Virus record (IMG/VR): IMGVR_UViG_3300031957_000416
Coordinates: 1-52,141 of that record
From: a virus
Lineage: Duplodnaviria > Caudoviricetes
DNA length: 52,141 bases
Direction: 5' to 3' (one strand)
This document shows, one piece after another, positions 2,791 to 47,611 of this stretch (the first letter of the stretch is position 1; every line of letters starts with the position of its first letter). A program made the position numbers and the translations under genes. The notes beneath the pieces are model-generated. The model made no database searches. It was not told the DNA's origin and saw nothing but the letters and a program-made list of their open reading frames with translations.

Positions 2791-4782
2791 CTATAATGCG
2801 ATCGCCATCGCTACTGCAAAGCCTGGTGAAGCATATAAAGTATCTGTAGATGTACCATTAATAGTTACAGCGTCAGCTTCAAGAGTACCATCTATATCTG
2901 CATCTCCAGATATATCTAAACTAGATGCCTCAATCTCACCACTTGCTTTAAATATTACATTATCTCCACCAGATACTTCAAAGATAATTTGATTGTCTGT
3001 ACCAAATTTAATTCTATTATCTGCATCTCTACCTATCTCTAAACTTGTATTAACTACTGAAGTAATGCCTGTCTGTGCTGCATCTACTGCTAATGTAACC
3101 GTATTTGAAGAAGCACTAGAAGCAAGTCCTGTACCACCAGCAACAGTTAATGTTTCACTATCAAGATCAATTGCAATAGTACCACTATCAGTTGTTATAT
3201 CTAAATCTTCTGCAGTAATTTGAGTATCTACATATGCTTTTACAGATTGCTGTGTTGGGACTAATGTAGCAGAGTTACTGCTCATATCATCTTCATCAAC
3301 AAATGCTGTAATAGTTATAGAGCCATCTGATAAACTACCATAAGTAACTGTGCCTGTAGTTGTTATTGCAGATGATCCATTATCTATAGATCCAAATCCT
3401 GAAGTAATTGATCCACTATTTAGTGCACCTACTGTTGTTGCTGCAGTAGTAACAAGATTAGGCATTGCTGTAATTTCATCATCAAAGTATGCAGCTAAAT
3501 CTGTAACTGCAACTTGAACCATAGTGCCGTTATCATTTAAGACAACTCTATCAGCATCTGCAACAGTAGTAGAAGTAGCTGATGTGCCACCATCTACAAT
3601 ATTTAACTCAGCAGCTGTAGCATCAACTGCAGCTAGTTTTGTAAAGTCTGCTTGTACTAAACCAGATACACCATCAAGTAAGTTAAGTTCTGTAGCTGTT
3701 GAAGTTACTGTTGTGCCATTAATAGATAAAGCATCTGTCTCTAAAGTACCGTCAATATCTGCATTACCTGATACATCTAATGATCCTGCATCTAACTCTC
3801 CAGTTAATGTTATGTTTCTAAATGATCCAATATCTTTATTAGAATCTACAACAACTGCTTTAGATGCTGCTACAGTTCCTGCAGTTACACCATCAATAGT
3901 TTCTAATTCTGCTTCATTAATATTTGCAGAACCAATAACAAAGCTAGTACCAGTAATTGCTGTACCTGTTATGGCACCTGCACTAGACCCACCAATAGTT
4001 ACACCATCAAGTGTACCCCCATTAATATCTGCAGTATCTGCAACTAGAGCATCAGTTGTTACTGTACCATCAAAGAATGCATCTTTAAATTCTACAGAAC
4101 TTGTACCTAAATCAATATCGTTATCTGTTGATGGAACAATTGCACCATTAGTAAATGTTACTTGATTAGCACCACCAGCTGCTACTGTAATAACATCAGA
4201 GCCACTAAATGTAATACTTGTGTCTGTATCTGCGTCTCCACTAATTGAATCTAATTGTATATTACCAGCATTGGTAAAGTTAGAATCACTTAGATCAAAT
4301 GTTCCTGTAACGTCTAGATTACCGCCAACTGATAGATTGCCTGATACATCTACTGCACCATTAATATCTACTGTAGTAGCTGCTATCTGTATTTCTGTAT
4401 CTGCTACTAGGTCTAGCTGACCATCTGCAGATGAGTGAATATATATTGCTGTGTCTCTAAATTGTACTTTCTCTGTGCTAGCTATTAACAGATCATCAGA
4501 AAACTCAAAGTAATCTTCATCTTCTTTCCATGTTAATACACCATCATTACTATTTGCATTAAATGTAATTGCTATGTCTGTATCTGCATTAGTACCAAAT
4601 GTTAGTGTATTACTAAATAATTTAGATATAGGCCCACCATCTCCAGCAGTACTGCCATCGTGTGTGTGACCTGTTGATACATTAAACGCTGCTAGTATCG
4701 CATTAAACTCATCATTAGTATGAGCTGCGGTAATAGTATCGCCATCACTGTATGAGCTTTGTCTAGCTGAATATACTGCCAT
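2791..4782 (-). CDS. Tail fibre / spike-like protein
   Basis: 663 aa with an N-terminal EFNAILAAF...GHTHDG anchor motif, internal repeats (SLDVSGNADIDGTLE / SLDISGDADIDGTLE) and a C-terminal GFAVAMAIAL. Confidence 0.75.
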   Translation of the reverse strand: MAVYSARQSSYSDGDTITAAHTNDEFNAILAAFNVSTGHTHDGSTAGDGGPISKLFSNTLTFGTNADTDIAITFNANSNDGVLTWKEDEDYFEFSDDLLIASTEKVQFRDTAIYIHSSADGQLDLVADTEIQIAATTVDINGAVDVSGNLSVGGNLDVTGTFDLSDSNFTNAGNIQLDSISGDADTDTSITFSGSDVITVAAGGANQVTFTNGAIVPSTDNDIDLGTSSVEFKDAFFDGTVTTDALVADTADINGGTLDGVTIGGSSAGAITGTAITGTSFVIGSANINEAELETIDGVTAGTVAASKAVVVDSNKDIGSFRNITLTGELDAGSLDVSGNADIDGTLETDALSINGTTVTSTATELNLLDGVSGLVQADFTKLAAVDATAAELNIVDGGTSATSTTVADADRVVLNDNGTMVQVAVTDLAAYFDDEITAMPNLVTTAATTVGALNSGSITSGFGSIDNGSSAITTTGTVTYGSLSDGSITITAFVDEDDMSSNSATLVPTQQSVKAYVDTQITAEDLDITTDSGTIAIDLDSETLTVAGGTGLASSASSNTVTLAVDAAQTGITSVVNTSLEIGRDADNRIKFGTDNQIIFEVSGGDNVIFKASGEIEASSLDISGDADIDGTLEADAVTINGTSTDTLYASPGFAVAMAIAL

Positions 4783-8108: not shown

Positions 8109-9026
8109 TTAGTCAATTAAAATGTGTTCTGCGATCAAAGCGTCTGATCTTAGAACTTTTCTGCCAAAGACATGTAAGCCTCTAACAACATCAGCAAATG
8201 ATTCTGTGTCTCTTACAACTTCCATTTTTGCAATATGGTTAGCAGTTGCAGTAGAAGACATGTGTCCAGAAAGCACTTTGAAGTAGTTAGATGTGCTTGA
8301 TGCAGCAAAGTTATTAGTTTGATACATAGTGAAGTTATGGATTTTTCCATTGTACACTTGACCATTTCTTAGTGGTCCAGCGGCTCCAGTAGTATCAGCC
8401 ATTAATTTACTGTTGGCTTTACCTAGTTCTTCATAGAAGTCAGGGCTTGCTAGAAACCATCTTCCTTCCATTGGAACATCAGCAGAGTCCAATCTTTTAG
8501 CGTGATTTGCGATTACGTTAATTGGGTCAATTTCAGGTGAACCAGCTAGAGACGTACCTTCTGCGTACGTTCCAACATCTTGTCCAGATCCATCTGATCC
8601 AACTGTAGTTCCTGCACCACTAAACATCGCAGCAATGATATTCTGATCATATGCATTTTTTAGAGCGTATGCACCAGATGATGATGCAACAGACTCAAAA
8701 TTCACATGAGAATGTCTTTCTTCGATATCATCCACTTTAAATGCAAAAGCATTTGCTTGGTCAACAACCAAAGTAATTTGATCGTCTGCAAGTTCTTGTG
8801 TATTGATAACGGAGCCACGAGTGTAACTAGCTACAGTAACCACGGGTTCTTTGATAATTCTTACCGTGTCACCAAAATTTTCAATTTCTCCAGCATAGTC
8901 GGTGTTTGTAATATCTTCAACAACCGAAGCCGTACGGAAAAACTTTTGAACCTTCTGGCTATATATTTCAGGTATGAAGTTATCATTAGGCAGGTTAGCG
9001 TAACCTGCTGCTCTTGATACTGCCAT
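8109..9026 (-). CDS. Major capsid protein
   Basis: NFIPEIYSQKV, DYAGEIENFGDTVRI and FADVVRGLHVFGRKVLR motifs. Lies after the scaffold gene. Confidence 0.92.
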   Translation of the reverse strand: MAVSRAAGYANLPNDNFIPEIYSQKVQKFFRTASVVEDITNTDYAGEIENFGDTVRIIKEPVVTVASYTRGSVINTQELADDQITLVVDQANAFAFKVDDIEERHSHVNFESVASSSGAYALKNAYDQNIIAAMFSGAGTTVGSDGSGQDVGTYAEGTSLAGSPEIDPINVIANHAKRLDSADVPMEGRWFLASPDFYEELGKANSKLMADTTGAAGPLRNGQVYNGKIHNFTMYQTNNFAASSTSNYFKVLSGHMSSTATANHIAKMEVVRDTESFADVVRGLHVFGRKVLRSDALIAEHILID

Positions 9027-9051: not shown

Positions 9052-9939
9052 TTAAAGTTGATTTTTTATACGACCTTCTCTTCTTGCTTGCATAATTTCT
9101 TTTTCATACTTATCAAACTCCGCAGGTTTTAACCTTGAAATTTCACTAGTAGTCCAAATTTTCTTTTCAGCTACGTTTATTTGATTTCCCTTTTTAGTAG
9201 CAGTTACTGCTTTAGCGGCATCTTTCTTTTTAGATTCAGATTTAGATTTTGTTTTAGCAATACCTGCATCCATCTTATAAAGATCAATAGCCCTTGCAGC
9301 TAAGTCTGCATTATCTGGGTTATCATATAACCATCCTTGAATTGTTGCGTCTTGTTTCGATGCCCAGTCATGAAAATTATCTGTGGCACGAATTTCTGCA
9401 AAATCAGGATGTCGTTTTAAAAGTTCAACTTCTGCTTTTTCTTTAGCAATTTGTACTTGCTGTCCTTGCAAAAATTGAAATTTCTCTTCAAGTTTTTTAG
9501 CACGTTCATCCGCTTGGTTCAAAGCAACTGATTGTATAACATCGTATACTTCAGGATACTTTTGTCTCCACTCTTCAAGTTCATTAGGATCTTTAGGTGG
9601 AAGCATTTTATTAGTACTCTGCTCTATCTGAGTTTTTAACTTTGTAACTTCGTTCTTATGACTGCTTAAAGTTTTGTCGTAATGGCGTTTAAGATCATCA
9701 TAACGTTTCTTAAAAGCCTTTTCCTCGGCTGTTACAGGGCGTTCTTCAGGAGTAGCCTCTTCTTGGGTGTCCTGTTGTTCGGTAGCTGTACCAGTATCCT
9801 TATCATCGAGATCTCTTCTGTACTTATTTTGATAAGGTGTAGGCTCAAGTATTTCCTCTACTTGATCCTGTTCAACTTCAGTTTCTTCTATTTGTTCTTC
9901 TATAGATTCTTCTAAAGCCTCTTGTGTTTCTTCAACCAT
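9052..9939 (-). CDS. Capsid scaffolding protein
   Basis: Acidic N-terminus, FKKRYDDLKRH coiled coil, HPDF motif and C-terminal IMQARREGRI. Directly precedes the capsid gene. Confidence 0.82.
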   Translation of the reverse strand: MVEETQEALEESIEEQIEETEVEQDQVEEILEPTPYQNKYRRDLDDKDTGTATEQQDTQEEATPEERPVTAEEKAFKKRYDDLKRHYDKTLSSHKNEVTKLKTQIEQSTNKMLPPKDPNELEEWRQKYPEVYDVIQSVALNQADERAKKLEEKFQFLQGQQVQIAKEKAEVELLKRHPDFAEIRATDNFHDWASKQDATIQGWLYDNPDNADLAARAIDLYKMDAGIAKTKSKSESKKKDAAKAVTATKKGNQINVAEKKIWTTSEISRLKPAEFDKYEKEIMQARREGRIKNQL

Positions 9940-9991: not shown

Positions 9992-10441
9992 CTAGACCAT
10001 GCCTGTTGGCATAGGTCCAGGTGGCACGTTAGTTTGTGGTGCACCTTGTGGTGCTCCGCCTAATCCACCTTGTGGTGAACTAGGAATCTCTTGTTGTCCT
10101 TTTGAAGCAAAATCTTGTCCCATCATTGAAACAGAATCTTCAATAGTTTCTGCAGGATATGCACTTGCAACTACAGAAACTGGAATATTTACAGTAGGTT
10201 CTTCTGGACCTATATCATTAAGTGCACCAGCAATTTCTGGACCAAATAATTCAGCCAATGCTTGCTTTAAGCCTGGAGTTAAATGCTGTTCTAAAATTTG
10301 CATAGTTCCTTCAGACGCATTTTGTAGTACTCTATTAAATTCTTCAGGGTTAATGTTTATACCTGCAGTAGGTGCCATTTCTTGTTCTGGCATCGTAGCC
10401 TGTTCAGGTGCCATCATTCCTTGTGGGGGCATCATTGCCAT
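9992..10441 (-). CDS. Hypothetical protein (Pro/Gln/Met-rich termini)
   Basis: 149 aa, translationally coupled to the upstream Hint-domain gene. Confidence 0.7.
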   Translation of the reverse strand: MAMMPPQGMMAPEQATMPEQEMAPTAGININPEEFNRVLQNASEGTMQILEQHLTPGLKQALAELFGPEIAGALNDIGPEEPTVNIPVSVVASAYPAETIEDSVSMMGQDFASKGQQEIPSSPQGGLGGAPQGAPQTNVPPGPMPTGMV

Positions 10442-12033
10442 TATGCTTCTCCTCTTAATTTTTTATTTAAATTCTGTTTTACTTTTTCAAAATATGGTGC
10501 CCAATCATCATCAGATCCTGTTTCAAAGTCTCCAAATTCTATATCATGAATCCATATTCTATTGTTAGAAGTTTTAAATGTATATACAGGTTCTACTCTA
10601 TCAGTAAGAATTCCATGCTTACTATCTTCTACTTCAATAAATTGATTATCTTCTATTACCCAGTGTGATCCAGAAACTAATACGCCTTTGTAGTTATAAA
10701 TATTTTGTGGCATAAATTCCATTTTAGCCTGTACAATACCGCCTCTAGTTTCTTCACCAATTTCAATACTTGTAATTTCTTTTGTAGTGCCATCAGCCAT
10801 TTGAACAGCAGTGCCTTCAACGAAACATCCTGATGGACCTCCGCCTCCTTGGCCTCCTTGACCACTACCTCCATCTCCTTTACTAGAACTTGGATCTCTA
10901 AATGATTTTGCCTCTGTTCTTTGTTGATCTGTCATAGAACCTGCACCTGATTGTGGCCCAGTTGGTCCACTTGGTGTACTTGATGTACTTGTGTCTTTAT
11001 CTTGACCACCTTGATCAGATTTTTTAGTTTTTACAGGTTTTACATTTCCAAATCTATCTGTATAAGTAACTACGCCTTTGTAGTTGCCTGTTTTAGGATC
11101 ATATCCATATCCAACTAATCCTGAAGCAACTTGATCGTTTATTTCTTTTTGTTTGTCTGCTGCTTTTTTAGCTAATTCTCTTTCTACTTCTCGTCTTCTT
11201 TCAAGTTCATCTAATAGTGCTTTTTCTCTTGCTGCCTCTGCTGCTTTTTCTGCTGCCTCTGCCTCTTCGCCTTCTCTTCTTTCAGTTATACTGCCACTAA
11301 ATAAATCAGTAGATAATGCACCTACATCTTGCGGTGTAGTAGCACCAGGTTGTGTAGGCCTTCTAGTAGGTACCATACCACTACTATCTAGTATATTAGA
11401 AAAGGCATCAGATAAATATCCTGGAATATTTTTATCTTCTGCCAATGCTTCTATTTGACTAGTGCTTAATCCTTTAGCGATAGTTCCATCTTCAATTTGA
11501 TCTTTAATTTTTTGTTCTGCTTTTTCTTGGTTAGCTTGATTTAAGAATCCTAAACCAGCACCTAAAAGTGGATTTACACCAGACAATACTTTTCCAAAAA
11601 CAAAATTTGCAACTTTAGCCCCTGTTCCTGGATAAGCAGTTGACATTAGTCCTTCTAAACTATTAGGATCTACAGTATTACCTGCATTAAATCCTCCTGC
11701 TCCTCCTTGAAAGTTTGAACTATAGGGATTATTTTCTCCGCCACCACGTTCAGTAATGGACATTTGAGTAGTTGTAGTTGTATCTTCACCTGTATCTTCA
11801 TCTGTATCATCATCTGTATCATCTGATGTTACAGGATCAACATCTAGTTCTGTTATAGGAGTAGTTAACATTTTTTGTAGATCTACTCCATCAGTAGAGG
11901 CAGACACTATTGGAGTATACTCATATTTTATTTTATATACTCCAGTAGTTGGATCTTGTTTTAACACTTGTTTATATGTAGGTAACCTACCTGTCCTAGG
12001 GTCTATCGAAGGTGGTGTATCATATAAAGCCAT
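10441..12033 (-). CDS. Low-complexity virion-module protein with a C-terminal Hint (intein/Hedgehog-like) domain
   Basis: SG|CFVEGTAVQMADGTTKEITSIEIGE (block A, Cys403), VSGSHWV (block B His), VYTFKTSNNRIWI (block F-like). Confidence 0.85.
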   Translation of the reverse strand: MALYDTPPSIDPRTGRLPTYKQVLKQDPTTGVYKIKYEYTPIVSASTDGVDLQKMLTTPITELDVDPVTSDDTDDDTDEDTGEDTTTTTQMSITERGGGENNPYSSNFQGGAGGFNAGNTVDPNSLEGLMSTAYPGTGAKVANFVFGKVLSGVNPLLGAGLGFLNQANQEKAEQKIKDQIEDGTIAKGLSTSQIEALAEDKNIPGYLSDAFSNILDSSGMVPTRRPTQPGATTPQDVGALSTDLFSGSITERREGEEAEAAEKAAEAAREKALLDELERRREVERELAKKAADKQKEINDQVASGLVGYGYDPKTGNYKGVVTYTDRFGNVKPVKTKKSDQGGQDKDTSTSSTPSGPTGPQSGAGSMTDQQRTEAKSFRDPSSSKGDGGSGQGGQGGGGPSGCFVEGTAVQMADGTTKEITSIEIGEETRGGIVQAKMEFMPQNIYNYKGVLVSGSHWVIEDNQFIEVEDSKHGILTDRVEPVYTFKTSNNRIWIHDIEFGDFETGSDDDWAPYFEKVKQNLNKKLRGEA

Positions 12034-12258
12034 TTAAAAAAATCTCCTACTTTTACTATCTTTCTTGTCCAGTTGCTGTTCTAGGTGCAACAGGTGGCGT
12101 AGAGAACTGATCTTCCCCTGGCTGCGGAACAGCTCCTGCTCCGATGTTGCCACCTCCAACTCCCGTTGCGTCTGCTGGATTTGCACCTGGAGGTATTCCT
12201 TGAGCACCTCCCATATTTTCTTGTTGTTGATTAGTAGCTTGAGCTTGTTGATTTCCAT
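12034..12258 (-). CDS. Small post-portal protein
   Basis: 74 aa helical protein with an ELFRSQG motif. Overlaps the portal 3' end. Confidence 0.7.
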   Translation of the reverse strand: MEINKLKLLINNKKIWEVLKEYLQVQIQQTQRELEVATSEQELFRSQGKISSLRHLLHLEQQLDKKDSKSRRFF

Positions 12259-14200
12259 TTGTCATCCCCATTATTTTAGCAAATAGTTGTGCATGTTCAG
12301 GGTCATTAATTAATTGATCAGGATCAATATCTAATGACTTTGCAATTTCTTTTAATATAGAATGCCATCTTACAAACGGTGCAATATTAGGATTATTTGC
12401 TGTTTGCATAAATGTCATTAATCTTTGTGATCTAACTTCTTTTTGCATCAGAGATGATGTACCTCTTGCTTTAACTTCTAGATCACCTTTAATTGGTTCT
12501 ACATCAGAATTAAATTGCATATTCCATGCGAATAAAGTATCACCAAGGGGTTTCAGTAAATAGTCGTCTATATTTTTTACTACTGTTTTAATACTTAATG
12601 CAGCTGCTCCCATAAGCATTGACATACCTGCAGCTGTTCTTGTTGTTGATTGAACACCAGTTGCACCATGTGAATACGATGGTATACCTGTTGATTCATC
12701 TGCAAGTTGTCTAAACTTATCAAACATCATTAAATTTTCTGGTGCTGTATTAGGAAACTTTAATCCGTTAATTGCAGTTCCTGTTACACCAGACTGTCTT
12801 CTAAATATTTTACCAGGATGTATTGACATATCTTGTCCTGGTACTAATTGTGTTTCGTCTATATCAAATACTAAGTTACCTGCTAATGCTAAATTATCAA
12901 TAGCCATTCTTGCATGGCCATTCATTACCATCTGTGCATCTTCCATATTTTCTGGTATACCTACACCAAAAAATTGATATGGATTTATTTCATATGGGCA
13001 TACATGAAATGGTATTCTTTCAGGAGTAAATGGATTTAGTACTAATCGTAAAACATGTCCGTTACATATCCATGCATTTATTTGAACTTCATCTAACTCT
13101 TCAAAGTCTTCATCAAGTTCTAAGCCTGCTTGTTCTGCAAGGGCTGTATCCATTGTTCCCCAGTATTCGTATATCTCATACCTTTGTTTTTTAAGATCAT
13201 CAACATTTTCTCTATCAAGCAGCGCAGTTTCAAAACCTCTAACTTCATAGTTTGCACCCATTCTTAAACATTCTCTTATAGCTTCTTTTCTAAAGTATGG
13301 TCTGTTTTTTAAATCTCTTAATTGTGCTCTATTTAAAGAATGTCTTTGAATTACATAATCACAATCTTCTATGCTTGTAGCATCAGGGTCTGGATAAAAA
13401 TCCCAAAGACTTACAGCTTCTAGTTTTGGTACAGATTTGACTGATGGGTTATACATAGACTCTCCACTTTCTTCGTCTTTATCCCATCTATGTAAAGTTT
13501 TATCATGTGTAAATGGACCTTTAAGAACTCCAGTACCAAGTAAAACCATTTCAAACAATACATGCCGTAGCATAGTAATTGCAGAAGTTTCTTCTAGCTG
13601 ATCATGTATTAGCTTTTGTAAATTTTCTGCAGCTTCTCTTGCTGGCTCTATCTGTTCTATCTGAGGAGACTGTGGAGAAGGTCCCTCAACAAAATTTAAA
13701 CCTTCATATTCTTTTGATAAGCCTCTTAATAAATCACTTGTTGTTGTGCCAGGAGCCATTTCTTTTCCATCTCCTGGAAATCCATACAGATCTACTACGT
13801 TATCTTCTTCTTCTTCAGGTTCATTATCTTGTTTAGTTCTTGCATATTCTGCAATACCATCAGGTACAGTTGTAGGTTCTATTCCAATAGGAAATTTTCC
13901 TGTTGAAAATAAAACTTCTATCAGTTGTCCAAAAGCAGCTAGAACTTTAGTTTTAGTTATTTTAACAAAGACTCTTGATTTCTCTTTTTCAGTAAAAGAC
14001 ATATCAGAACCATACAAACCTCTATAGTTTCTATATGCTCTTAGCCAACGACTTTCATCAAAAAGTCTAGCGTCTTCTGCCCTAAAAAATCTTTCTTTAA
14101 CTAATCCTTGAAGACTTGAAAAATCTTCATAACTATCTTCTTTTTCTTCTGGCTCTCCTAGTCCCAGAACTGTATCATCTGGGTTGTTTACATCAGCCAT
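12056..14200 (-). CDS. Portal (head-tail connector) protein
   Basis: 714 aa downstream of the terminase. WDFYPDP, YEYWG, PYQFFGVG and ADESTGIP motifs. Confidence 0.88.
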   Translation of the reverse strand: MADVNNPDDTVLGLGEPEEKEDSYEDFSSLQGLVKERFFRAEDARLFDESRWLRAYRNYRGLYGSDMSFTEKEKSRVFVKITKTKVLAAFGQLIEVLFSTGKFPIGIEPTTVPDGIAEYARTKQDNEPEEEEDNVVDLYGFPGDGKEMAPGTTTSDLLRGLSKEYEGLNFVEGPSPQSPQIEQIEPAREAAENLQKLIHDQLEETSAITMLRHVLFEMVLLGTGVLKGPFTHDKTLHRWDKDEESGESMYNPSVKSVPKLEAVSLWDFYPDPDATSIEDCDYVIQRHSLNRAQLRDLKNRPYFRKEAIRECLRMGANYEVRGFETALLDRENVDDLKKQRYEIYEYWGTMDTALAEQAGLELDEDFEELDEVQINAWICNGHVLRLVLNPFTPERIPFHVCPYEINPYQFFGVGIPENMEDAQMVMNGHARMAIDNLALAGNLVFDIDETQLVPGQDMSIHPGKIFRRQSGVTGTAINGLKFPNTAPENLMMFDKFRQLADESTGIPSYSHGATGVQSTTRTAAGMSMLMGAAALSIKTVVKNIDDYLLKPLGDTLFAWNMQFNSDVEPIKGDLEVKARGTSSLMQKEVRSQRLMTFMQTANNPNIAPFVRWHSILKEIAKSLDIDPDQLINDPEHAQLFAKIMGMTNGNQQAQATNQQQENMGGAQGIPPGANPADATGVGGGNIGAGAVPQPGEDQFSTPPVAPRTATGQER

Positions 14201-14393: not shown

Positions 14394-14762
14394 TTATTTC
14401 TCCTTATGTTTAGTTTTTGATAGTGACTCTTGTATAAATTTTAAGAGCCATGGATTATCTCGTAAGACAATATGTATTTGGTTAGCCAATGTATTTGTAA
14501 CAACTTCTTCTTTATCTTCATCTGATAATGGATTAGATTTAGTTGTAAGCCCACCAACGTAACAACACGCATGTAATACTTCATGAATTACTGTATTTAA
14601 TAAATCGTGTCGTTCTAAATTTGTATTTATTTGTATTTTATTTTCTCTTTGCAAATAATGACCATAGCAATCTGTAAGATTATCTGTTCTAAAATCTGCA
14701 TCTTTTAATTCAATAGTTAGATCTTGAAATCCAACTCTTAATTTTTTTCCATCTATATCCAT
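14394..14762 (-). CDS. HExxH zinc metallopeptidase-like protein
   Basis: NTVIHEVLHA followed by a downstream EE. Confidence 0.7.
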   Translation of the reverse strand: MDIDGKKLRVGFQDLTIELKDADFRTDNLTDCYGHYLQRENKIQINTNLERHDLLNTVIHEVLHACCYVGGLTTKSNPLSDEDKEEVVTNTLANQIHIVLRDNPWLLKFIQESLSKTKHKEK

Positions 14763-16378
14763 TAGTATCCAAACATCCTATCTGCTGGTGTATATTGTTT
14801 ATTAGAATTAAAACTTGATAAGCCAATTCCGTGTGGATTAATGGGGCGAGACATGCATCCATATCTTAGTGCATCGTAAGCATGATCTTCTGCGTGCGTA
14901 TCAACATCTTCTGGATTGTTTTTATCGCATGGTAAAAGTGGTAGTGTTCGTATTAAGTTAACACAGTTGTTAAAAATAAATAACGATGGTTTAGCTTCAT
15001 TATTTTTTTCTCTAACAGATAGTCGTTTGTGTATTTCCAGTTTACCGTTGATACGACTTCTTGGTGATCTATCCGATGGTCTCCATCTACATCCTGTGTT
15101 GATCATCGTTTCTGCAATACTTGGACCAACATCACCTCTTCGTGCCCAAGTACTTGAATCTAGAACTCCATATCTTATATATTCTTTATGTTCTAAATCT
15201 AAAACTTGTTGTGCAAATAAATCTGCTGTAACTTTTTTTGTGTACAATTCTCTATAGATATATAAATTATTATCAAAATCTATAGCAAACCATAATACAC
15301 AAGCAGGTGAAGAATATCCCCAGTCACATGCTCTAAACTTATGCCAGTTTCTAGGTAGTTCAAATGGTTCTAAAACATGAACCGCTTTGTTAAACTCTGG
15401 GAAAGCTGCATCTTCATACGCTCCCCAATCTCCATCTAGAAATTGTTTTCTTTGCACTTCAGGCAAAGAAGCTAGCATAATATAATAATCCTCTGTTTGC
15501 ATCAGATATGGATTATCTTGTAACTTAGCTGGTATAAATCTTCTTGTTATCTTTTTATTACCAACTGGAGTTTGTATATCAATATCAAACTTTGTATTAG
15601 GCACCGCTGGATCTACAAACATTTCTTTTACCCAAGTAGATCCTACATTTCCCGGGTTACCTGTTGCTCTCATAAACACTGGTATATCTGGATCAACTGA
15701 TCTAAGAGATGATCTTAGAAAGTTATAGATATCAGGAGTTGAATATTGTGGTAACTCATCAATTCCAATCCATGTATAAGACTGACCTTGATATCTAAGT
15801 GCGTCAGTAGTGTTTTCAGCATATCCAAATTCTATTTTAGCACCTGATGGAAATCTCCATTCTTTTTCCTGCTCTCTCCATTTAGCTCCAGGAAACGCTT
15901 TTGGATACAATTGTTGAGAATGATTTATTAAATCTCTCAACTCAGGCATAGAACGTCTAATCAATAGTGCTCTATGTTTTTGCCTATCACAATATCGTAG
16001 TGGATCAATAAGCATTGCATATGACTTACCACCACCTCTTGCTCCACCATAAAATACTTCACGTTCAGATGCTGCTAAGAACTGTGTTTGAGGCCCTTCA
16101 TTTGGTTTAAAGATTACTTCTTGTTCTTTAACAGCCTCTTTTACATTTGGTGGAACGTTATCTAATTCTTCTTCAACAAATATATTTTCTTTATTCTCTA
16201 ATATATTATCAGCTTTTTGTATAGCTTCTTTTTTATTTTTTAATTTCTTTTGTGCATTATGATAATTATCTTTTGCTTTTTGTACTTGTTTAGCTATATC
16301 ACTAATGCTAGCCTTTGCTGATCTTTTTGCTTTAGCTACTTTTTTCTTTTTAGGTTTAGGCGGTAGAACATCATTCAC
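14762..16378 (-). CDS. terL: Terminase large subunit
   Basis: Walker A YGGARGGGKS, Walker B IGIDE, RATGNPG, and nuclease motifs DWG and DHAYDALRY. Confidence 0.95.
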   Translation of the reverse strand: MNDVLPPKPKKKKVAKAKRSAKASISDIAKQVQKAKDNYHNAQKKLKNKKEAIQKADNILENKENIFVEEELDNVPPNVKEAVKEQEVIFKPNEGPQTQFLAASEREVFYGGARGGGKSYAMLIDPLRYCDRQKHRALLIRRSMPELRDLINHSQQLYPKAFPGAKWREQEKEWRFPSGAKIEFGYAENTTDALRYQGQSYTWIGIDELPQYSTPDIYNFLRSSLRSVDPDIPVFMRATGNPGNVGSTWVKEMFVDPAVPNTKFDIDIQTPVGNKKITRRFIPAKLQDNPYLMQTEDYYIMLASLPEVQRKQFLDGDWGAYEDAAFPEFNKAVHVLEPFELPRNWHKFRACDWGYSSPACVLWFAIDFDNNLYIYRELYTKKVTADLFAQQVLDLEHKEYIRYGVLDSSTWARRGDVGPSIAETMINTGCRWRPSDRSPRSRINGKLEIHKRLSVREKNNEAKPSLFIFNNCVNLIRTLPLLPCDKNNPEDVDTHAEDHAYDALRYGCMSRPINPHGIGLSSFNSNKQYTPADRMFGY

Positions 16379-16604
16379 TTCTTGATAGCACCTTTCTTAA
16401 ACCTGGAGCAGAAATATATCTGCCTGTTTTTCTTTGCATCCATCCAGCAACTTCTCGATAGGAACAACTTTTAATATAATTTTTTGCCTGTTCTATAGCT
16501 TCAAGTTCTTCTGGAATTGGCTCTAATACTTTATCATCCTCTTCATTAACTTTATAACCAAAAGGAATTGTTCTTGATACTCTTTTTTTAAGTCCTAGTG
16601 TCAT
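16371..16604 (-). CDS. Small HTH-like DNA-binding protein
   Basis: IPFGY...SYREVAGW...ISAPGLRK, between terS and terL. Confidence 0.65.
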   Translation of the reverse strand: MTLGLKKRVSRTIPFGYKVNEEDDKVLEPIPEELEAIEQAKNYIKSCSYREVAGWMQRKTGRYISAPGLRKVLSRSE

Positions 16605-16984
16605 GCTTCTTTTGGTGGTAGTATGAATATCCCGTGTGCAACTTTTGCATTAATATCTATTTTTTCTTTTTTAACTAGTCCTACTCTATCTAATATTTGT
16701 TTAGCTGCTTCCATTCTAATATTAGCACCAGGTATAGATCCATCATCATCAATTGCATTGGCCATGCTAATTGCAGCTTTGGGTGAATGTGCTGCTAATA
16801 CCATTTCGGCACGTTCTATGATTTGGTCTTTTAAACCTTGTACCACTTTTGGATATGAGGTGGGAGCATAGCCAGCAATTTCAGCTGCTGTTCTTGGCTC
16901 ACCATTGGCCTCACCAAATAAAGCAGATAGAAATAGTTTTTGCTTCTCAGTTAATTCTGTACTTTCTTTTTTATCTAGAAGCAT
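16601..16984 (-). CDS. terS: Terminase small subunit
   Basis: LTEKQKLFL...AAEIAGY helix-turn-helix and AAKQILDRVG. Upstream of terL. Confidence 0.8.
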   Translation of the reverse strand: MLLDKKESTELTEKQKLFLSALFGEANGEPRTAAEIAGYAPTSYPKVVQGLKDQIIERAEMVLAAHSPKAAISMANAIDDDGSIPGANIRMEAAKQILDRVGLVKKEKIDINAKVAHGIFILPPKEA

Positions 16985-17124: not shown

Positions 17125-17391
17125 TTAGCAATTCCATGCTCTTAATGATTTATTAATTCTACTATTAGGGTCATTAGCTGTTTTTTTAGAAGTTAACTTT
17201 TTCTTCATACCCTTCATTCTTGCACAAAAAGACGCTCTTCTTTTATTTCCTACCTTTTTACTAGGTGCTTTAAGATTACGTTTCTTTCCTGTTTTAGTTT
17301 TTCCTTTATTATAAGACGCACGACCTTTAGCATTTAATCCACCTTTAGGATTCTTGCCTTCTTTTCTCTGCCATGCTGGGGTCTTTGCCAT
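17125..17391 (-). CDS. Basic protein, DUF6321-like
   Basis: GGLNAKGRASYN, RRASFCARM and RINKSLRAWNC. Confidence 0.7.
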   Translation of the reverse strand: MAKTPAWQRKEGKNPKGGLNAKGRASYNKGKTKTGKKRNLKAPSKKVGNKRRASFCARMKGMKKKLTSKKTANDPNSRINKSLRAWNC

Positions 17392-17639
17392 TATGAAAAC
17401 TTTCTATACTTTCTTACTTTATTTGCAATACTTTTTGGCTGTTTAGAAACTTGTTTACCTTTTGCTTTAGCCTTTCGTTTTGCTTTTGTGGTCGCAGCAT
17501 ATTCTGATGATGATAATGCTTTAATAGCCTTTTCAGGAAGATAGCGTTCACCAGTTACAGAAGATTTTTTCCCTGACTTAGTTCGCCACTTTTGTTTACC
17601 CCATGCTTTTAAACTTCTTTGACTTTTTTTTAGTGCCAT
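17391..17639 (-). CDS. Basic protein, DUF5872-like C-terminal half
   Basis: QRSLKAWGKQKWRTKSGK...ERYLPEKAIKALS. Confidence 0.7.
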   Translation of the reverse strand: MALKKSQRSLKAWGKQKWRTKSGKKSSVTGERYLPEKAIKALSSSEYAATTKAKRKAKAKGKQVSKQPKSIANKVRKYRKFS

Positions 17640-45688: not shown

Positions 45689-45691
45689 ATA

Positions 45692-47611
45692 CTACTCTGT
45701 ATCTTTAGCTTGTGCTAAGAATTTTTTTATTTTAGGTAGTTGTCGTTTAAAGTCTTTTATATTTTTATTGTAGAATCTTAAGTCTTCTCCATACTGCCCC
45801 TCTAAACTTTGCTCATCCTCTGGATAATTTTCTTTTTTTGGTACATCAAATGAATTAACAAATGACTCCCAAGCTCCCATATTTTCTGAAGCCCAAGATA
45901 ATAACTCTGGGTTTGGCTCTTCTGTGTTTCTAACGTTAAGTTTAGAAGGTGGTAAGAACTCTTCATAGTTATCTCTATTTATAGAAGTAGGTATTACATC
46001 AGGATCTTCTGCTTTCTTTTTATTGTACACTTCAAATTCTTCTTGTGACATATTTAAGAATGGCTGAATAGCTTCCATGCCACCAGATGAGTTTACTATT
46101 TCCTGTTTAAGCAGGTCACGATTATTTGGACTCATGCCAGAGAATACTCCAGAATCTCCTCCAACTAATTGTTTACTGCCATCAGGAGAATATATACCAA
46201 ATAAATCTCTAGCATCTACAATATTAATTGTTTCATAAATATCTTTTGGATTTACAATTTGTAATCCCCCATCAGGTAATACTTGTGGATTAATAGATCC
46301 TGTTATTTGTTTTTCTGTAAAAGGTGCTTCTGGGTTATCTCTAACATCTACAAGAACTTTTACATTTAATCTAGGATCATCTCCAGGATTTTTAAATTGA
46401 CCAAATAAATCATAGTAACCTTGATTTCTATATTCAGCAATTGCAGTCTCTCTGTACCTACTTACAACATCGTCATATAGTGTTTTATTTGTAATTTCTG
46501 TTCCGCCAACATCTATAGAACCTTCAGGATCTTTATTGTATCTATTAATGATTTGAGTATCAGGATTAAGAGGATCTCTTGATAATTCAGAGATCATATT
46601 ATTTGTATAATCTAAAACTGCTCTATCTAATGTACTTAAAGCATTCATGACACTGTTTTGAGATATACGTCCTTCAGCCCTTGCTATATCAATAGCTTCT
46701 CCAATAGTAGACACATTAGGAGATTGTAGCATCATAGTTTGTGCAGTCTGTAGCTGATAGCTAAATTTATATTTTTCTCTTAATAGATCTGCCTGTGCGC
46801 CCATTCCTGGTACAGCGTTAAATGCTGCCATATCTAAATCTTGTTTAGTTAACCTTGGAACCCAGTTTACTGTCTGTGCCATTTTAGTTAAATTCATACT
46901 AGGCAGATCGTCCATTGTAGCTTTATCTACAATATCATTTATGTTTGTTAAAAATTGTTCTTGGCTTACTCTTCCCTCTGTATATTCAGGTGAATCAAAT
47001 GCACTTTCACTAACAACCCCAGGTTGCACAAAATCTTGTACAAATAATTTACTAGCGTTCTCTCCAGTTAAATTAGCAAGGCCTGTGTTAACTTGTTTAT
47101 TATAGGTATCTCTTTGTTGTTTTATTATGTCTCCTACAGTGGCACCTTGTCCATAAACTTCATATATACTTTTTATTTCTTTAGTATCTCCTGTTATATC
47201 TCCAGCTGGAGCAAACTGTTGATTTGCACCTTCTCCTGTTATGTCCCCAGATAAACCTGTAAGCAGGTAACTGTCTATTAAATTTTTTGCCTTACTTATA
47301 TCATTCATCTTGAATAAAGTAGGATTTTTAAAATATAATAAAGCTAAATCATCTTCTTTGTCAGCCCCATATTGACCTTTTAATAATTCATAATTATTTT
47401 TCATAGTGTCAAAGACATTATTTTTAATAGACTGCTGATCTCCTGTTTGCCTTCTAGCATCATTTACTGAATTAAGAACTAAGGTTGCTCCTGCTTGTTC
47501 TCCTTCAGCAATAAGATCTTCTTCAGTTTGCTTTTCTTTTTCTTGCCTTGCAAGTAAACTTCCAAGGGCACCTGTTGCAGCTGGTACTAGTAATCTTTTT
47601 AAATCAACCAT
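45692..47611 (-). CDS. Internal virion protein
   Basis: 639 aa in the core-protein cluster. Confidence 0.6.
   Translation of the reverse strand: MVDLKRLLVPAATGALGSLLARQEKEKQTEEDLIAEGEQAGATLVLNSVNDARRQTGDQQSIKNNVFDTMKNNYELLKGQYGADKEDDLALLYFKNPTLFKMNDISKAKNLIDSYLLTGLSGDITGEGANQQFAPAGDITGDTKEIKSIYEVYGQGATVGDIIKQQRDTYNKQVNTGLANLTGENASKLFVQDFVQPGVVSESAFDSPEYTEGRVSQEQFLTNINDIVDKATMDDLPSMNLTKMAQTVNWVPRLTKQDLDMAAFNAVPGMGAQADLLREKYKFSYQLQTAQTMMLQSPNVSTIGEAIDIARAEGRISQNSVMNALSTLDRAVLDYTNNMISELSRDPLNPDTQIINRYNKDPEGSIDVGGTEITNKTLYDDVVSRYRETAIAEYRNQGYYDLFGQFKNPGDDPRLNVKVLVDVRDNPEAPFTEKQITGSINPQVLPDGGLQIVNPKDIYETINIVDARDLFGIYSPDGSKQLVGGDSGVFSGMSPNNRDLLKQEIVNSSGGMEAIQPFLNMSQEEFEVYNKKKAEDPDVIPTSINRDNYEEFLPPSKLNVRNTEEPNPELLSWASENMGAWESFVNSFDVPKKENYPEDEQSLEGQYGEDLRFYNKNIKDFKRQLPKIKKFLAQAKDTE

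What the first reader, a model, noticed from the sequence alone, without database searches (positions are those of the whole stretch)
10441..12033. Hedgehog-like self-cleaving Hint protein in the head-assembly operon
Seen: between the portal and scaffold genes, about 400 aa of mostly low-complexity sequence (acidic tract, amphipathic KVANFVFGKVLSGVNPLLGAGLGFL, coiled coil, Gly/Ser linker) ends at G|CF (Cys403, codon 10825-10827). A compact Hint fold follows, with the block B His but no terminal His-Asn (it ends FGDF), then a roughly 27 aa helical tail. Known: Hint domains lacking the C-terminal Asn cannot splice canonically, and Hedgehog uses the G-C thioester to attach cholesterol. Inference: the protein self-cleaves and may ligate its new C-terminus to a lipid, an amine or another virion protein, which would be an undescribed maturation or ejection step.
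Basis: partly seen in the sequence, partly recalled or inferred. Interest (0 to 1): 0.8.

Follow-up and report, generated by a model that had tools for sequence, protein, structure and literature searches.

The report
Self-cleaving Hint cap on phage protein
A marine phage protein encoded next to the portal gene ends in a small intein/Hedgehog-type domain that most likely cuts itself off, and the same cassette is swapped among unrelated ocean phages, which points to an undescribed way of maturing virion proteins.

Summary
ORF 10441-12033 (-) encodes 530 aa: a 402-aa low-complexity part, a Gly-rich linker, then Cys403 opening a 101-aa Hint fold (AF2 pLDDT 92.9; best PDB matches are BIL, intein, Vint and Hedgehog domains) and a 27-aa helix. 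Cys403 (232 of 232) and the block-B His457 (235 of 237) are conserved across the family. There is no terminal His-Asn and no +1 nucleophile, so only the first, N-terminal step of Hint chemistry is available.

New here: the Hint-helix unit is a sharply bounded cassette of about 385 nt. It is 60-95% identical in at least 392 IMG/VR stretches and has 1315 cluster representatives. It caps unrelated low-complexity virion-module proteins of at least three podophage types whose nearest cultured relatives are pelagiphages, and also a T4 gp5-like spike. It is under purifying selection and its tree disagrees with gene context. No cultured phage record, Pfam, NCBIfam or PHROG family names it. In the same gene of sister phages a non-Hint helical cassette replaces it.

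Most likely it removes itself by autocleavage at Gly402|Cys403. Hedgehog/BUBL-like ligation is possible but untested. The scan has noted similar Hint caps on other phage DNA. No experiment supports cleavage yet.

The parts
10441..12033 (-). Whole gene, 530 aa: low-complexity N-terminal part, then linker, Hint domain and helical tail
   Evidence: ORF list. dN/dS against relatives is 0.04-0.15 over the cassette. A full-length homologue is 93% identical.
10828..12033 (-). N-terminal part ('cargo'), aa 1-402. It is low-complexity (G 12.7%, T 10.2%, D 8.5%, S 8.2%; net charge -19) and hypervariable between sister phages.
   Evidence: Composition. It is 33-51% identical over partial stretches in loci whose portal, scaffold-position and head proteins are 77-96% identical. 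AF2 was not run on this part.
11899..12033 (-). aa 1-45, the only N-terminal stretch conserved among same-position homologues of HMO-2011-type phages. It may be a lineage-specific docking segment (inference).
   Evidence: BLASTP matches over query aa 1-39 or 1-50 at 50-77% identity in P0013-P0017, P0021, P0024 and P0027, whose remaining N-terminal sequence does not align.
11542..11619 (-). aa 139-164, a Gly-rich amphipathic/hydrophobic segment (glycine-zipper-like)
   Evidence: This is the highest hydropathy window of the protein (KD19 1.23 at aa 141-146). Similar Gly-rich hydrophobic segments occur in the N-terminal parts from other contexts.
11134..11283 (-). aa 251-300, a charged Glu/Ala/Lys/Arg-rich helical (coiled-coil-like) stretch
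   Evidence: Read from the translation. No coiled-coil program was run.
10828..11019 (-). aa 339-402, a Gly/Ser/Pro/Thr-rich flexible linker ending in Gly402 (the -1 residue)
   Evidence: Translation. pLDDT is below 50 for aa 396-400. The -1 residue is Gly in 149, Ser in 29 and Phe in 20 of 237 family members.
10825..10827 (-). Cys403 codon: predicted nucleophile, the first residue of the Hint domain and of the shared cassette
   Evidence: Cys in 232 of 232 sequences that cover the column. 61 of 113 C-terminal BLASTP alignments start exactly here. Nucleotide similarity to unrelated phages starts at 10827-10848 in most loci.
10525..10827 (-). Hint domain, aa 403-503 (a minimal version, about 35-45 residues shorter than the canonical Hint domains it aligns to)
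   Evidence: AF2 pLDDT 92.9. Foldseek PDB and BFVD matches. hhalign 98.1%. Profile match to PI-SceI block A, E 1.3e-5.
10663..10665 (-). His457 codon: block-B histidine (motif S/A-G-S-H)
   Evidence: His in 235 of 237 sequences. Position 454 (the Thr place of T-x-x-H) is Ser in 191 and Ala in 45. It aligns to the T-S-E-H of canonical Hint domains.
10444..10524 (-). aa 504-530, the C-terminal tail. An amphipathic helix at aa 508-527 is conserved together with the Hint domain.
   Evidence: DSSP helix at model residues 113-132, with block pLDDT of 88, 95 and 86 over model residues 111-135. The tail is conserved within this subfamily. Other subfamilies have different tails of 27-35 aa.
12056..14200 (-). 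Portal gene, immediately upstream
   Evidence: PF23899 E 4.2e-29; phrog_332 and phrog_1216. 63% identical to the HTVC033P portal.
9992..10441 (-). 149-aa Pro/Met/Gln-rich ORF; its start overlaps the stop of ORF530. It is hypervariable like the N-terminal part of ORF530.
   Evidence: ORF list. 37-45% identical in sister loci. No Pfam, PHROG or NCBIfam hit.
9052..9939 (-). 295-aa acidic coiled-coil protein in the scaffold position
   Evidence: phrog_13678 E 5.6e-60, function unknown. The scaffold role is inferred from position and composition.
8109..9026 (-). Major head protein
   Evidence: phrog_267 E 4.6e-62.

Best explanation
ORF530 is a precursor of a virion-module protein, probably an internal, portal-associated or ejection-type protein. 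It carries a removable C-terminal autoprocessing cassette: a minimal Hint domain (aa 403-503) plus a 27-aa helix.

Inferred mechanism: the Hint fold strains the Gly402-Cys403 peptide bond. The Cys403 thiol attacks the Gly402 carbonyl (N-to-S acyl shift), helped by His457. The resulting thioester is then resolved, most simply by water. This frees a 402-aa product ending in Gly402 and a 128-aa Hint-helix fragment. Because there is no terminal Asn and no +1 Cys/Ser/Thr, no splicing follows.

Shown here:
- the fold
- the invariant first-step residues
- the exact coincidence of the homology boundary with Cys403
- purifying selection on the cassette
- its repeated transfer between unrelated virion genes

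Inferred, not shown: cleavage itself, its timing (probably during or after assembly), and what the cassette does before it leaves. It may act as a pro-domain that keeps a sticky, membrane-active or DNA-binding disordered protein soluble or inactive, or that helps it assemble.
For: 1. Fold. AF2 gives pLDDT 92.9 and pTM 0.84. The three Foldseek PDB matches with E <= 0.001 are chains of the BIL2 domain (6y75, 6tmm; TMq 0.62). Every other listed match is a BIL, intein, Vint or Hedgehog domain. BFVD gives 25 matches with E <= 0.001, many named Hint.

2. Homology. hhalign of the family against 13 upstream Hint domains gives probability 98.1%, E 5.2e-13 over 101 columns, with S454/H457 on the T/H of T-x-x-H. 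Members of that upstream set pass Pfam cut-offs for Hom_end_hint or Vint (E 1e-13 to 1e-19).

3. Catalytic residues. Among 237 distinct domains, Cys403 is present in 232 of 232 that cover the column and His457 in 235 of 237. F404, T408, K418, E461, R492, F500 and D502 are near-invariant.

4. Boundary. 61 of 113 C-terminal alignments begin exactly at aa 403 and 39 begin inside the Gly linker. Nucleotide similarity to unrelated phages runs from 10827-10848 to 10452-10532 at 78-86% identity in the listed examples.

5. Selection. dN/dS is 0.04-0.48, and about 0.1 for the nearest copies.

6. Autonomy. The same cassette caps unrelated N-terminal parts in five gene contexts in 78 IMG/VR loci. It also caps a gp5-like baseplate hub. 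No downstream gene is shared between contexts.

7. Related tandem forms (P0007, P0145, P0160) place one or two His-Asn-ending Hint domains directly before it, so everything after the N-terminal part looks disposable.

8. Published chemistry. Type B BILs lack block G similarity and catalyse cleavage uncoupled from splicing; Thr B:7 and His B:10 act at the N-terminal bond (passages of PMC4031507).
Against: - No experiment, proteome or read data bears on cleavage; it is predicted from sequence and a model.
- The Thr of T-x-x-H is Ser (191) or Ala (45), not Thr.
- The position aligned to intein F:4 is Thr/Ser/Val, not Asp. This alignment was run in global mode and its C-terminal part is unreliable.
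- Pfam, PHROG and NCBIfam do not place the domain in any family above threshold.
- In sister phages the same N-terminal part (69-91% identical) carries a non-Hint five-helix cassette instead. So Hint chemistry is not indispensable to this gene's role, whatever the shared role of the two cassettes is.
- The strongly conserved tail helix and residues E461, R492 and D502 are not needed for a plain hydrolytic cut. They hint at something more.
- No cultured phage carries the cassette, so no virion data exist.
Confidence: 0.6

Rival explanations
1. Hedgehog/BUBL-like ligation. The Gly402 thioester is not hydrolysed but captured by a specific nucleophile, such as a lipid hydroxyl or amine, a peptidoglycan or polyamine amine, or a Lys of a virion or host protein. 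The mature protein would then carry a covalent C-terminal adduct. The conserved helix would act as the adduct-recognition region.
For: - The layout matches the Hog layout: a G|C-F junction, a Hint domain without Asn, and a conserved extension of about 30 aa. That Hedgehog cleaves at G-C-F and needs a sterol-recognition region is recalled knowledge.
- The best PDB match, BIL2 of Tetrahymena BUBL, conjugates its N-terminal ubiquitin-like domain to lysines through an isopeptide bond without ATP (passages of PMC8616854).
- Extra near-invariant polar residues (K418, E461, R492, D502) are not explained by the first step alone.
- The N-terminal parts carry Gly-rich hydrophobic segments and include a cell-puncturing spike. 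For such proteins a lipid or envelope anchor would make sense.
Against: - No acceptor is identifiable, and no conserved partner gene travels with the cassette.
- The tail differs completely between subfamilies, unlike a conserved binding site.
- The -1 residue and the linker are variable.
- A non-Hint cassette can replace it in the same gene.
- Structural similarity to BIL2 is only TM 0.62 at 14% identity, and BIL2 has the C-terminal Asn that this domain lacks (entry title 'C1A-N143A').
Confidence: 0.15
2. Transient assembly cap. The Hint-helix unit acts like the self-cleaving intramolecular chaperone domains of phage tailspikes and fibres. It would bring the C-termini of several chains together, or keep them soluble, until the oligomer (spike, needle or portal-bound ring) has formed, and would then cut itself off.
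For: - It caps the C-terminal beta-helix of a trimeric gp5-like hub.
- It caps proteins with coiled-coil stretches.
- It has an amphipathic terminal helix.
- Earlier scan notes describe Hint caps on fibres. These notes are unchecked.
Against: - Most N-terminal parts are disordered, Pro/Gly/Gln-rich or Arg/Gly-rich sequences with no obvious oligomeric fold.
- Nothing here shows that the cassette oligomerises.
- This reading shares the cleavage step with the best explanation and differs only in the purpose of the cassette.
Confidence: 0.1
3. Selfish or near-neutral mobile element. An intein-like parasite settles at the 3' ends of virion genes behind Gly-rich linkers. It is kept functional only because it must remove itself to be harmless, and it gives the phage nothing.
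For: - The cassette is sharply bounded.
- Its tree disagrees with gene context: 16 label changes against a minimum of 5, and well-supported branches force at least 2-6 changes per context.
- dS to an unrelated phage type (L013, 0.63) equals dS to a sister phage (L003, 0.59), while no other gene of L013 matches the window.
- Tandem stacks of Hint domains exist.
- Some phages have two copies in different genes.
Against: - There is no homing endonuclease or other mobility function in the 128 aa.
- It is always attached to one class of proteins (low-complexity virion-module proteins and a spike) in 79 of 80 ORFs whose context could be assigned. A parasite would be expected to be less selective.
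- A second, unrelated cassette occupies the same place, which suggests that the position needs some C-terminal module.
Confidence: 0.1
4. Non-catalytic Hint fold. The domain stays attached and serves as a structural or binding domain, for example a plug or a host-binding knob. In this reading Cys403 is conserved for another reason, such as metal binding or a disulfide.
For: - The Thr of block B and the Asp of block F are not conserved.
- Hint-like folds without activity are known in the superfamily. Pfam AXH matches the upstream domains of relatives.
Against: - Cys is the first residue of the conserved unit in 232 of 232 sequences and His457 is present in 235 of 237.
- Homology starts exactly at the Cys.
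- The preceding sequence is always a flexible Gly-rich linker.
- Tandem forms pair it with complete His-Asn Hint domains.
Confidence: 0.07

Closest known systems
Type B bacterial intein-like (BIL) domains (Amitai et al. 2003; Dassa et al. 2004, as summarised in PMC4031507, passages read)
   Same: A Hint fold with an N-terminal Cys and a block-B His. [quoted passage not shown] Cleavage is expected without splicing. It is attached to hypervariable proteins.
   Different: This is a different sequence family: no Pfam or NCBIfam model reaches threshold. It is shorter, about 101 aa. It is always at the extreme C-terminus, followed by a conserved tail of 27-35 aa. It was found only in viral contigs: none among 32 pattern candidates in 185,579 species genomes, a scan based on a single pattern. 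I did not compare it directly with a type B BIL sequence.
Hedgehog / Hog C-terminal autoprocessing domain (Hint plus sterol- or adduct-recognition region); PDB 1at0
   Same: The layout is the same: N-terminal part, Gly-Cys-Phe junction, Hint without a terminal Asn, then a short conserved extension. N-terminal thioester chemistry only. 1at0 is among the Foldseek matches (rank 17, E 0.023).
   Different: The structural match is weak (TMq 0.44). The tail is a single 20-residue helix, not homologous to the SRR. The host is a phage, not a eukaryote. Adduct transfer is untested. The G-C-F motif of Hedgehog and the role of the SRR are recalled, not taken from a call.
BIL2 domain of the Tetrahymena thermophila BUBL1 locus (PDB 6y75, 6tmm)
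   Same: It is the best structural match (E 1e-4, TMq 0.62) and also a profile-sequence match over block A (E 2.4e-3). It is a Hint domain that uses the thioester to hand its N-terminal partner to an amine.
   Different: Identity is 14%. BIL2 has a C-terminal Asn and sits between two ubiquitin-like domains. Here nothing but a helix follows the domain.
Class 1 mini-inteins (gp41-1 6riz, Ssp/Npu DnaB 1mi8/4o1r, Mtu RecA)
   Same: Same fold, block A and block-B His.
   Different: There is no His-Asn, no +1 Cys/Ser/Thr (Phe or Tyr follows Asp502), no insertion in a conserved host protein, and no endonuclease. It cannot splice by the class 1 route.
Self-cleaving C-terminal intramolecular chaperone domains of phage tailspikes and fibres (Peptidase S74 type); recalled, not tested here
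   Same: It works in a similar way: a C-terminal module of a virion protein that is needed at first and then removes itself.
   Different: The fold and chemistry are unrelated (a Ser-Lys dyad in a helical/beta trimer against a Cys thioester in a Hint fold). That domain was not matched by any search here.
Pretoxin HINT (PF07591) of polymorphic toxins
   Same: A Hint domain used as a releasing device in hypervariable modular proteins. The upstream Hint domains of relatives P0145 and P0160 give weak PT-HINT matches (E 5e-4 and 1.8e-3, below the cut-off).
   Different: PT-HINT sits before a C-terminal toxin that it releases. Here the Hint is terminal and releases what lies before it. The window's own domain does not match PF07591.

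Membership tests
HINT superfamily (Hedgehog/intein fold) | The all-beta Hint fold | tested here: met
   AF2 pLDDT 92.9 and pTM 0.84. All listed Foldseek PDB matches are inteins, BILs, Vint or Hedgehog domains, the best at E 1e-4 and TMq 0.62. BFVD gives 25 matches with E <= 0.001.
HINT superfamily (Hedgehog/intein fold) | Cys or Ser nucleophile as the first residue of the domain (block A) | tested here: met
   Cys403 is present in 232 of 232 covering sequences. The block A profile matches PI-SceI with E 1.3e-5.
HINT superfamily (Hedgehog/intein fold) | Block B T-x-x-H | tested here: inconclusive
   His457 is present in 235 of 237 sequences, but the Thr position is Ser in 191 and Ala in 45. It aligns to T-S-E-H of canonical domains.
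HINT superfamily (Hedgehog/intein fold) | Significant sequence relation to recognised Hint families | tested here: met
   hhalign gives 98.1%, E 5.2e-13 against upstream Hint domains of relatives that pass Pfam cut-offs. The direct Pfam match of the window protein is below the cut-off (20.5 against 32.1 bits).
Inteins (class 1) | C-terminal His-Asn (block G) | tested here: not met
   The last strand ends F-G-D-F and there is no conserved Asn at the domain end.
Inteins (class 1) | Cys/Ser/Thr as the first residue of a C-extein | tested here: not met
   The residue after Asp502 is Phe (119) or Tyr (117). Only 27 residues follow.
Inteins (class 1) | Insertion inside a conserved host protein | tested here: not met
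   The domain is always C-terminal, behind variable low-complexity sequence.
Type B BIL domains | Hint domain without block G similarity that cleaves without splicing | tested here: inconclusive
   The sequence features fit and the definition is taken from PMC4031507. No type B BIL sequence was compared, and activity is not testable here.
Hedgehog/Hog autoprocessing domain | Gly-Cys junction, Hint without Asn, followed by an adduct-recognition region | tested here: inconclusive
   The junction and the conserved tail are present. The tail is not shown to be related to an SRR/ARR. 1at0 matches only at E 0.023 and TMq 0.44.
Hedgehog/Hog autoprocessing domain | Transfer of the N-terminal product to a nucleophile other than water | not testable with these tools
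   This needs mass spectrometry of the product.
Podovirus internal/ejection proteins (T7 gp14-16-like, P22 gp7/16/20-like) | Presence in the virion and ejection into the host | not testable with these tools
   Only position supports this. The gene lies next to the portal (contexts A, C, D) or between the tail hub and a 'DNA ejection protein' (phrog_4287) plus a lysin-bearing protein (context B). No PHROG family matches the N-terminal part.

The most novel reading that the evidence does not exclude
Abundant ocean podophages, and at least one myophage lineage, use a portable Hint-helix cassette as a protein ligase of one turnover. In this reading the thioester formed at Gly402 is handed to a lipid, to an envelope or polyamine amine, or to a lysine of a virion or host protein. 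The cargoes that would gain a covalent C-terminal anchor are ejection proteins, DNA-binding core proteins and a cell-puncturing spike. The conserved terminal helix would choose the acceptor, and the unrelated 'GG|xVICTELY' helical cassette would be a second solution to the same task. This would be a Hedgehog/BUBL-type modification in viruses of bacteria.
Probability: 0.15. Interest if true: 0.9.

Novelty: new variant of a known kind. Interest (0 to 1): 0.62.

Why it matters
Hint chemistry is known from inteins, Hedgehog, BIL domains and pretoxin modules, but not as a routine way of maturing phage virion proteins. Here a compact, unnamed Hint-helix cassette has these properties:
- It is common in marine viral metagenomes: 1315 cluster representatives, and at least 392 IMG/VR stretches from one scan.
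- It is confined to virion-module genes.
- It is exchanged between phage lineages whose nearest cultured relatives infect SAR11.
- It is absent from the 50,697 deposited phage records searched, so nobody could have met it at the bench.

If it cleaves, it is a protease-free, self-contained maturation step for proteins that are hard to handle because they are disordered, membrane-active or DNA-binding. It would also be a ready-made small thiol-independent or thiol-inducible C-terminal self-removing tag. If it ligates, it is a new kind of virion modification.

The natural swap with a second, non-Hint cassette in the same gene offers a direct genetic handle on what such C-terminal modules are for.

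Tried and rejected
**Direct annotation.** Pfam gave only a sub-threshold block A match. PHROGs gave only a weak match to an intein-bearing 'DNA repair protein' family. NCBIfam gave nothing meaningful. phmmer against PDB gave E 0.46.

**Cultured relatives.** tblastn of the whole protein against 50,697 phage records found no match at E <= 1e-3. The domain alone at E <= 1 matched 9 records, all over residues 7-35 only, mostly in genes annotated as UvsX/RecA-like recombination or repair proteins (one hypothetical). I take these to be inteins.

**Capsid-targeting idea.** I considered that the tail helix docks on the portal, scaffold or coat protein. I set this aside because the same cassette (60-88% identical) sits in phages whose head genes show no similarity to the window's, and no partner gene is shared downstream.

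**True intein with the tail as C-extein.** Rejected: there is no Asn and no +1 nucleophile.

**Homotrimer test of the Hint-tail unit (complex prediction, 3 copies).** The verdict was 'no answer': score 0.32 against a mark of 0.42, controls 0.00-0.02. It counts neither for nor against.

**Alternative C-terminal cassette.** AF2 gives a confident five-helix bundle at aa 220-319 of P0342 (blockwise pLDDT about 81-94), but the rest of the chain is below 50. Foldseek PDB found nothing with E <= 0.001. Pfam and PHROGs found nothing.

**Cellular genomes.** One pattern gave 32 candidates and none was confirmed. This is a weak negative.

**Literature.** The following searches returned no paper describing a terminal Hint cassette on phage virion or ejection proteins:
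- 'HMO-2011' with 'Hint'
- 'bacterial intein-like' with 'phage'
- 'Hint domain', bacteriophage, autoproteolytic, virion
- 'Hint domain' with 'pelagiphage' (0 papers)
- Hint, ejection protein, intein-like, podovirus, self-cleavage

The phiCbK and CBB papers mention only terminase inteins. Subscription journals and supplementary files were not searchable, so a description there cannot be excluded.

**Not done.**
- No coiled-coil, disorder or transmembrane predictor was run on the N-terminal part.
- No sequencing-run or read analysis was made.

Full report
**What is there.** The window is a whole 52,141-nt metagenomic viral contig; the longest contig holding the same protein has that length. Its portal is 63% identical to that of Pelagibacter phage HTVC033P and 50-56% identical to other HMO-2011-type phages.

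On the minus strand the order is:
- large terminase, 14762-16378
- a small SprT-like metallopeptidase-like ORF, 14394-14762
- portal, 12056-14200
- the 530-aa ORF, 10441-12033
- a 149-aa Pro/Met/Gln-rich ORF whose start overlaps the stop of the 530-aa ORF, 9992-10441
- a 295-aa coiled-coil protein in the scaffold position, 9052-9939
- major head protein, 8109-9026

Gly402-Cys403-Phe404 has its Cys codon at 10825-10827. His457 lies in S-G-S-H. The last strand ends F-G-D-F (aa 500-503), and 27 residues follow.

**Is it a Hint domain?**
- Sequence searches alone are marginal. Pfam Hom_end_hint scores 20.5 bits against a cut-off of 32.1, over aa 403-429. PDB phmmer gives E 0.46. NCBIfam finds nothing.
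- With a 48-row alignment of relatives, a profile search of PDB sequences reaches PI-SceI block A at E 1.3e-5 and BIL2 chains at 2.4e-3.
- AlphaFold2 folds aa 396-530 with pLDDT 92.9 and pTM 0.84 into eleven strands and one terminal helix.
- Foldseek against the PDB returns only Hint-superfamily domains among the listed matches. These are BIL2 of Tetrahymena BUBL (E 1e-4, TMq 0.62), the C. thermocellum BIL 2lwy, gp41-1, DnaB, NrdJ, RecA and Prp8 inteins, the Vint domain 8r2c and Hedgehog 1at0.
- BFVD returns 25 viral proteins with E <= 0.001, many named Hint. The protein atlas gives viral clusters, a minority of whose members carry Vint.
- Some relatives carry, directly before this domain, one or two canonical Hint domains that end in His-Asn and pass Pfam cut-offs. 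hhalign of the family against 13 such upstream domains gives probability 98.1%, E 5.2e-13 over 101 columns, and puts Ser454 and His457 on the Thr and His of T-x-x-H.

The fold and the superfamily assignment are therefore secure.

**Which chemistry is left?** In 237 distinct domain sequences, Cys403 is present in all 232 that cover the column. His457 is present in 235. Phe404, Thr408, Lys418, Glu461, Arg492, Phe500 and Asp502 are nearly invariant. The Thr position of block B is Ser (191) or Ala (45).

There is no conserved Asn at the end of the domain. The residue after Asp502 is Phe or Tyr, so neither Asn cyclisation next to a +1 nucleophile nor class 1 splicing is possible. According to the passages read in PMC4031507, this is how type B BIL domains are described: no similarity to block G, and cleavage uncoupled from splicing. 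Thr B:7 and His B:10 are the residues that act on the N-terminal bond.

The expected reaction is an N-to-S acyl shift at Gly402-Cys403 followed by resolution of the thioester. That it happens is inference.

**A mobile cassette.**

*Abundance and position in the protein.* The word-indexed search found 156 proteins with E <= 1e-3 among the 8000 candidates scored. The exhaustive search with aa 396-530 found 1315 cluster representatives with E <= 1e-3, of which 492 had E <= 1e-10. In nearly all of the 150 listed proteins the domain is C-terminal and followed by 27-35 residues; the exceptions look truncated. It is preceded by a Gly-rich linker.

*Boundaries.* Of the 120 proteins listed, 118 gave a BLASTP alignment to ORF530. 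One is full-length (93%), four share only the N-terminal part, and 113 share a separate C-terminal piece. That piece begins exactly at aa 403 in 61 proteins, inside the linker (aa 389-402) in 39, and earlier in 13. At the nucleotide level, similarity to phages of other types starts at 10827-10848 in most loci (24 at 10830, 11 at 10827) and ends at 10452-10532. The listed examples are 78-86% identical.

*Gene contexts.* A scan of IMG/VR with the alignment matched 500 stretches, of which 392 encode a relative. The best 80 were kept, giving 78 loci. The 80 Hint-bearing ORFs found in them fall into five contexts (four loci were relabelled by me):
- A, 10 ORFs: after the portal of HMO-2011-type phages, as in the window.
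- A2, 8 ORFs: a second gene in some of the same phages, with an Arg/Gly/Lys-rich N-terminal part. It lies beside homologues of the window's two small basic proteins (17125-17639) and the 127-aa ORF at 16601-16984 (in the small-terminase position).
- B, 25 ORFs: directly after a tail-hub-like protein (phrog_3287) and before a 'DNA ejection protein' (phrog_4287) and a lysin-bearing protein. The hub-like protein's nearest cultured relative is HTVC106P at 39%.
- C, 26 ORFs: directly after a different portal.
- D, 10 ORFs: one gene before a related portal. For C and D the nearest cultured relatives of the portal are HTVC027P (59%) and HTVC023P (51%).
- One ORF was unassigned.

The window itself has only one copy. 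Two proteins of 913 and 951 aa carry the cassette after the beta-helix of a T4 gp5-like baseplate hub (Gp5_OB E 1e-22; phrog_430 E 3e-73).

*Transfer and selection.* Apart from the cassette, type B, C and D loci share almost nothing with the window at tblastn E <= 1e-6. The exceptions are a few short matches to the 663-aa and 588-aa ORFs at 2791-4782 and 419-2185 (the latter fibre-like) and two to small ORFs. Yet dS between the window's cassette and the type B locus L013 (0.63, 86% nt identity) equals dS to the sister phage L003 (0.59). dN/dS is about 0.1 for the nearer copies and 0.04-0.48 overall.

A maximum-likelihood tree of 48 distinct cassettes needs 16 changes of context label against a minimum of 5. 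Well-supported branches force at least 6 (C), 4 (B), 3 (D), 3 (A2) and 2 (A) changes. Labels are still more clustered than shuffled ones (shuffled mean 28.5; none of 200 shuffles as low). In locus L008, the A2 copy is 88% identical to the window's cassette while the same phage's portal-adjacent copy is only 61%.

No downstream gene is shared between contexts.

The cassette thus works on its own, is kept by selection, and has moved repeatedly between virion genes.

**What it is attached to.** The N-terminal parts are unrelated to each other but alike in kind. They are long, low-complexity, Pro/Gly/Gln/Asn/Thr-rich or Arg/Gly-rich sequences. They often have short Gly-rich hydrophobic segments and charged helical stretches. 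AF2 gave pLDDT below 50 for most of the comparable N-terminal part of P0342.

In sister phages the N-terminal part of ORF530 and the following 149-aa ORF are only 33-51% identical over partial stretches, while the portal, scaffold-position and head proteins are 77-96% identical.

The positions, next to the portal or at the head of an ejection-gene cluster, and the gp5-like case suggest proteins that sit inside the particle or at its tip and leave first at infection. The Pa223 preprint describes such portal-bound and membrane-forming ejection proteins in a phage with a related tail hub (passages). This assignment is by position only; no PHROG family matches any of the N-terminal parts. The window also has a separate cluster of 172-, 639- and 1654-aa ORFs without family matches (47611-48129, 45692-47611, 40724-45688) that could be its gp14/15/16-type set.

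**A second cassette in the same place.** Three metagenomic proteins share 69-91% identity with the N-terminal 234-394 residues of ORF530 but end in a different module of about 115 aa. It starts, again right after Gly-Gly, with x-V-I-C-T-E-L-Y. The cultured phages HTVC033P (gp76) and HMO-2011 (ORF49) have this module at the same gene position.

It has 289 relatives with E <= 1e-3 among 301 candidates. It is always C-terminal, behind Gly-zipper or Lys-rich amphipathic sequences, with invariant Cys, Glu, Leu and Gln near its start. AF2 predicts a five-helix bundle with blockwise pLDDT of about 81-94. It has no PDB match at E <= 0.001 and no Pfam or PHROG family.

This natural swap says that the gene needs some C-terminal module. 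It also cautions that the need may not be for Hint chemistry as such.

**Mechanism and rivals.** I put about 0.6 on plain autocleavage that removes the cassette from the mature virion protein. Its earlier role as a pro-domain is unknown. The rivals are:
- Ligation in the manner of Hedgehog or BUBL, 0.15. BIL2 forms an isopeptide with lysines. This reading is favoured by the conserved helix and the extra invariant polar residues, but no acceptor or partner is identifiable.
- A transient assembly cap, 0.1.
- A selfish element, 0.1.
- A non-catalytic domain, 0.07.

The trimer prediction gave no verdict and is not used.

**Novelty.**
- Hint domains on proteins of uncultured phages are auto-annotated in UniProt.
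- Earlier notes of this scan describe Hint caps on phage fibres, baseplate and core-position proteins in other genomes. These are unchecked AI notes, not independent evidence.
- I found no paper on a terminal Hint cassette on phage virion or ejection proteins in five searches.
- No curated family names it, and no copy occurs in 50,697 deposited phage records.

It is a new variant of a known kind: a new, compact, phage-borne Hint family with a new biological setting.

**Limits.** Everything about activity is inferred. Supplementary files of papers were not available.

Noticed in passing
P0003-P0005 and P0279-P0395; L001:6967-8604 (HTVC033P gp76); L002:9187-11475 (HMO-2011 ORF49): A second, non-Hint C-terminal cassette of about 115 aa begins right after Gly-Gly with x-V-I-C-T-E-L-Y-x-Q and has an invariant Cys. 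It replaces the Hint-helix unit in the same portal-adjacent gene. It also caps many Gly-zipper or Lys-rich proteins: 289 relatives among 301 candidates. AF2 predicts a five-helix bundle with blockwise pLDDT of about 81-94. It has no PDB, Pfam or PHROG match. Whether it is also removed is unknown.
   Followed up: partly
L005:2-940, L008:786-1670, L044:564-1577, L052:348-1439, L053:3252-4364, L076:772-1857, L077:176-1261, L080:3-770: Some HMO-2011-type relatives carry a second Hint-capped gene with an Arg/Gly/Lys/Ala-rich (histone-like) N-terminal part. It lies beside homologues of the window's small basic proteins (17125-17391, 17391-17639). The window has no second copy.
   Followed up: partly
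P0007, P0127, P0145, P0160-P0174 (proteins): Tandem Hint stacks: one or two complete Hint domains ending in V-H-N-K stand directly before the terminal Asn-less Hint. They are separated from it by one to about ten residues, mostly Gly (N-terminal part, Hint(HN), [Hint(HN)], Hint, tail).
   Followed up: partly
P0097, P0126 (913 and 951 aa): A T4 gp5-like baseplate hub (Gp5_OB plus beta-helix repeats) ends in the same Hint-helix cassette at 78-79% identity to the window's. The cassette therefore also occurs on a myovirus-type cell-puncturing spike.
   Followed up: partly
window 9992-10441 (-): This 149-aa Pro/Met/Gln/Gly-rich ORF is translationally coupled to ORF530 (its start overlaps the stop). 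It has no family match and is as hypervariable as the N-terminal part of ORF530 (37-45% identity in sister loci whose head genes are 77-96% identical).
   Followed up: partly
window 12034-12258 (-): A 74-aa ORF overlaps the 3' end of the portal gene in another frame and stops one base before the ATG of ORF530. HMO-2011 has an annotated small ORF in the same place (phage1322_50). Its conservation in relatives may only reflect the overlapping portal gene.
   Followed up: no
window 14394-14762 (-): A 122-aa SprT-like/zinc-metallopeptidase-like ORF lies between the terminase and the portal (PF10263 E 1.7e-5, just under the cut-off; phrog_1233, phrog_87). It is conserved at 68-96% in sister loci. 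No classical prohead protease family matched any of the 18 window ORFs scanned.
   Followed up: no
window 40724-48129 (-): Three consecutive ORFs of 172, 639 and 1654 aa have no PHROG match. Their sizes and order resemble a T7 gp14/15/16-type ejection-protein set.
   Followed up: no
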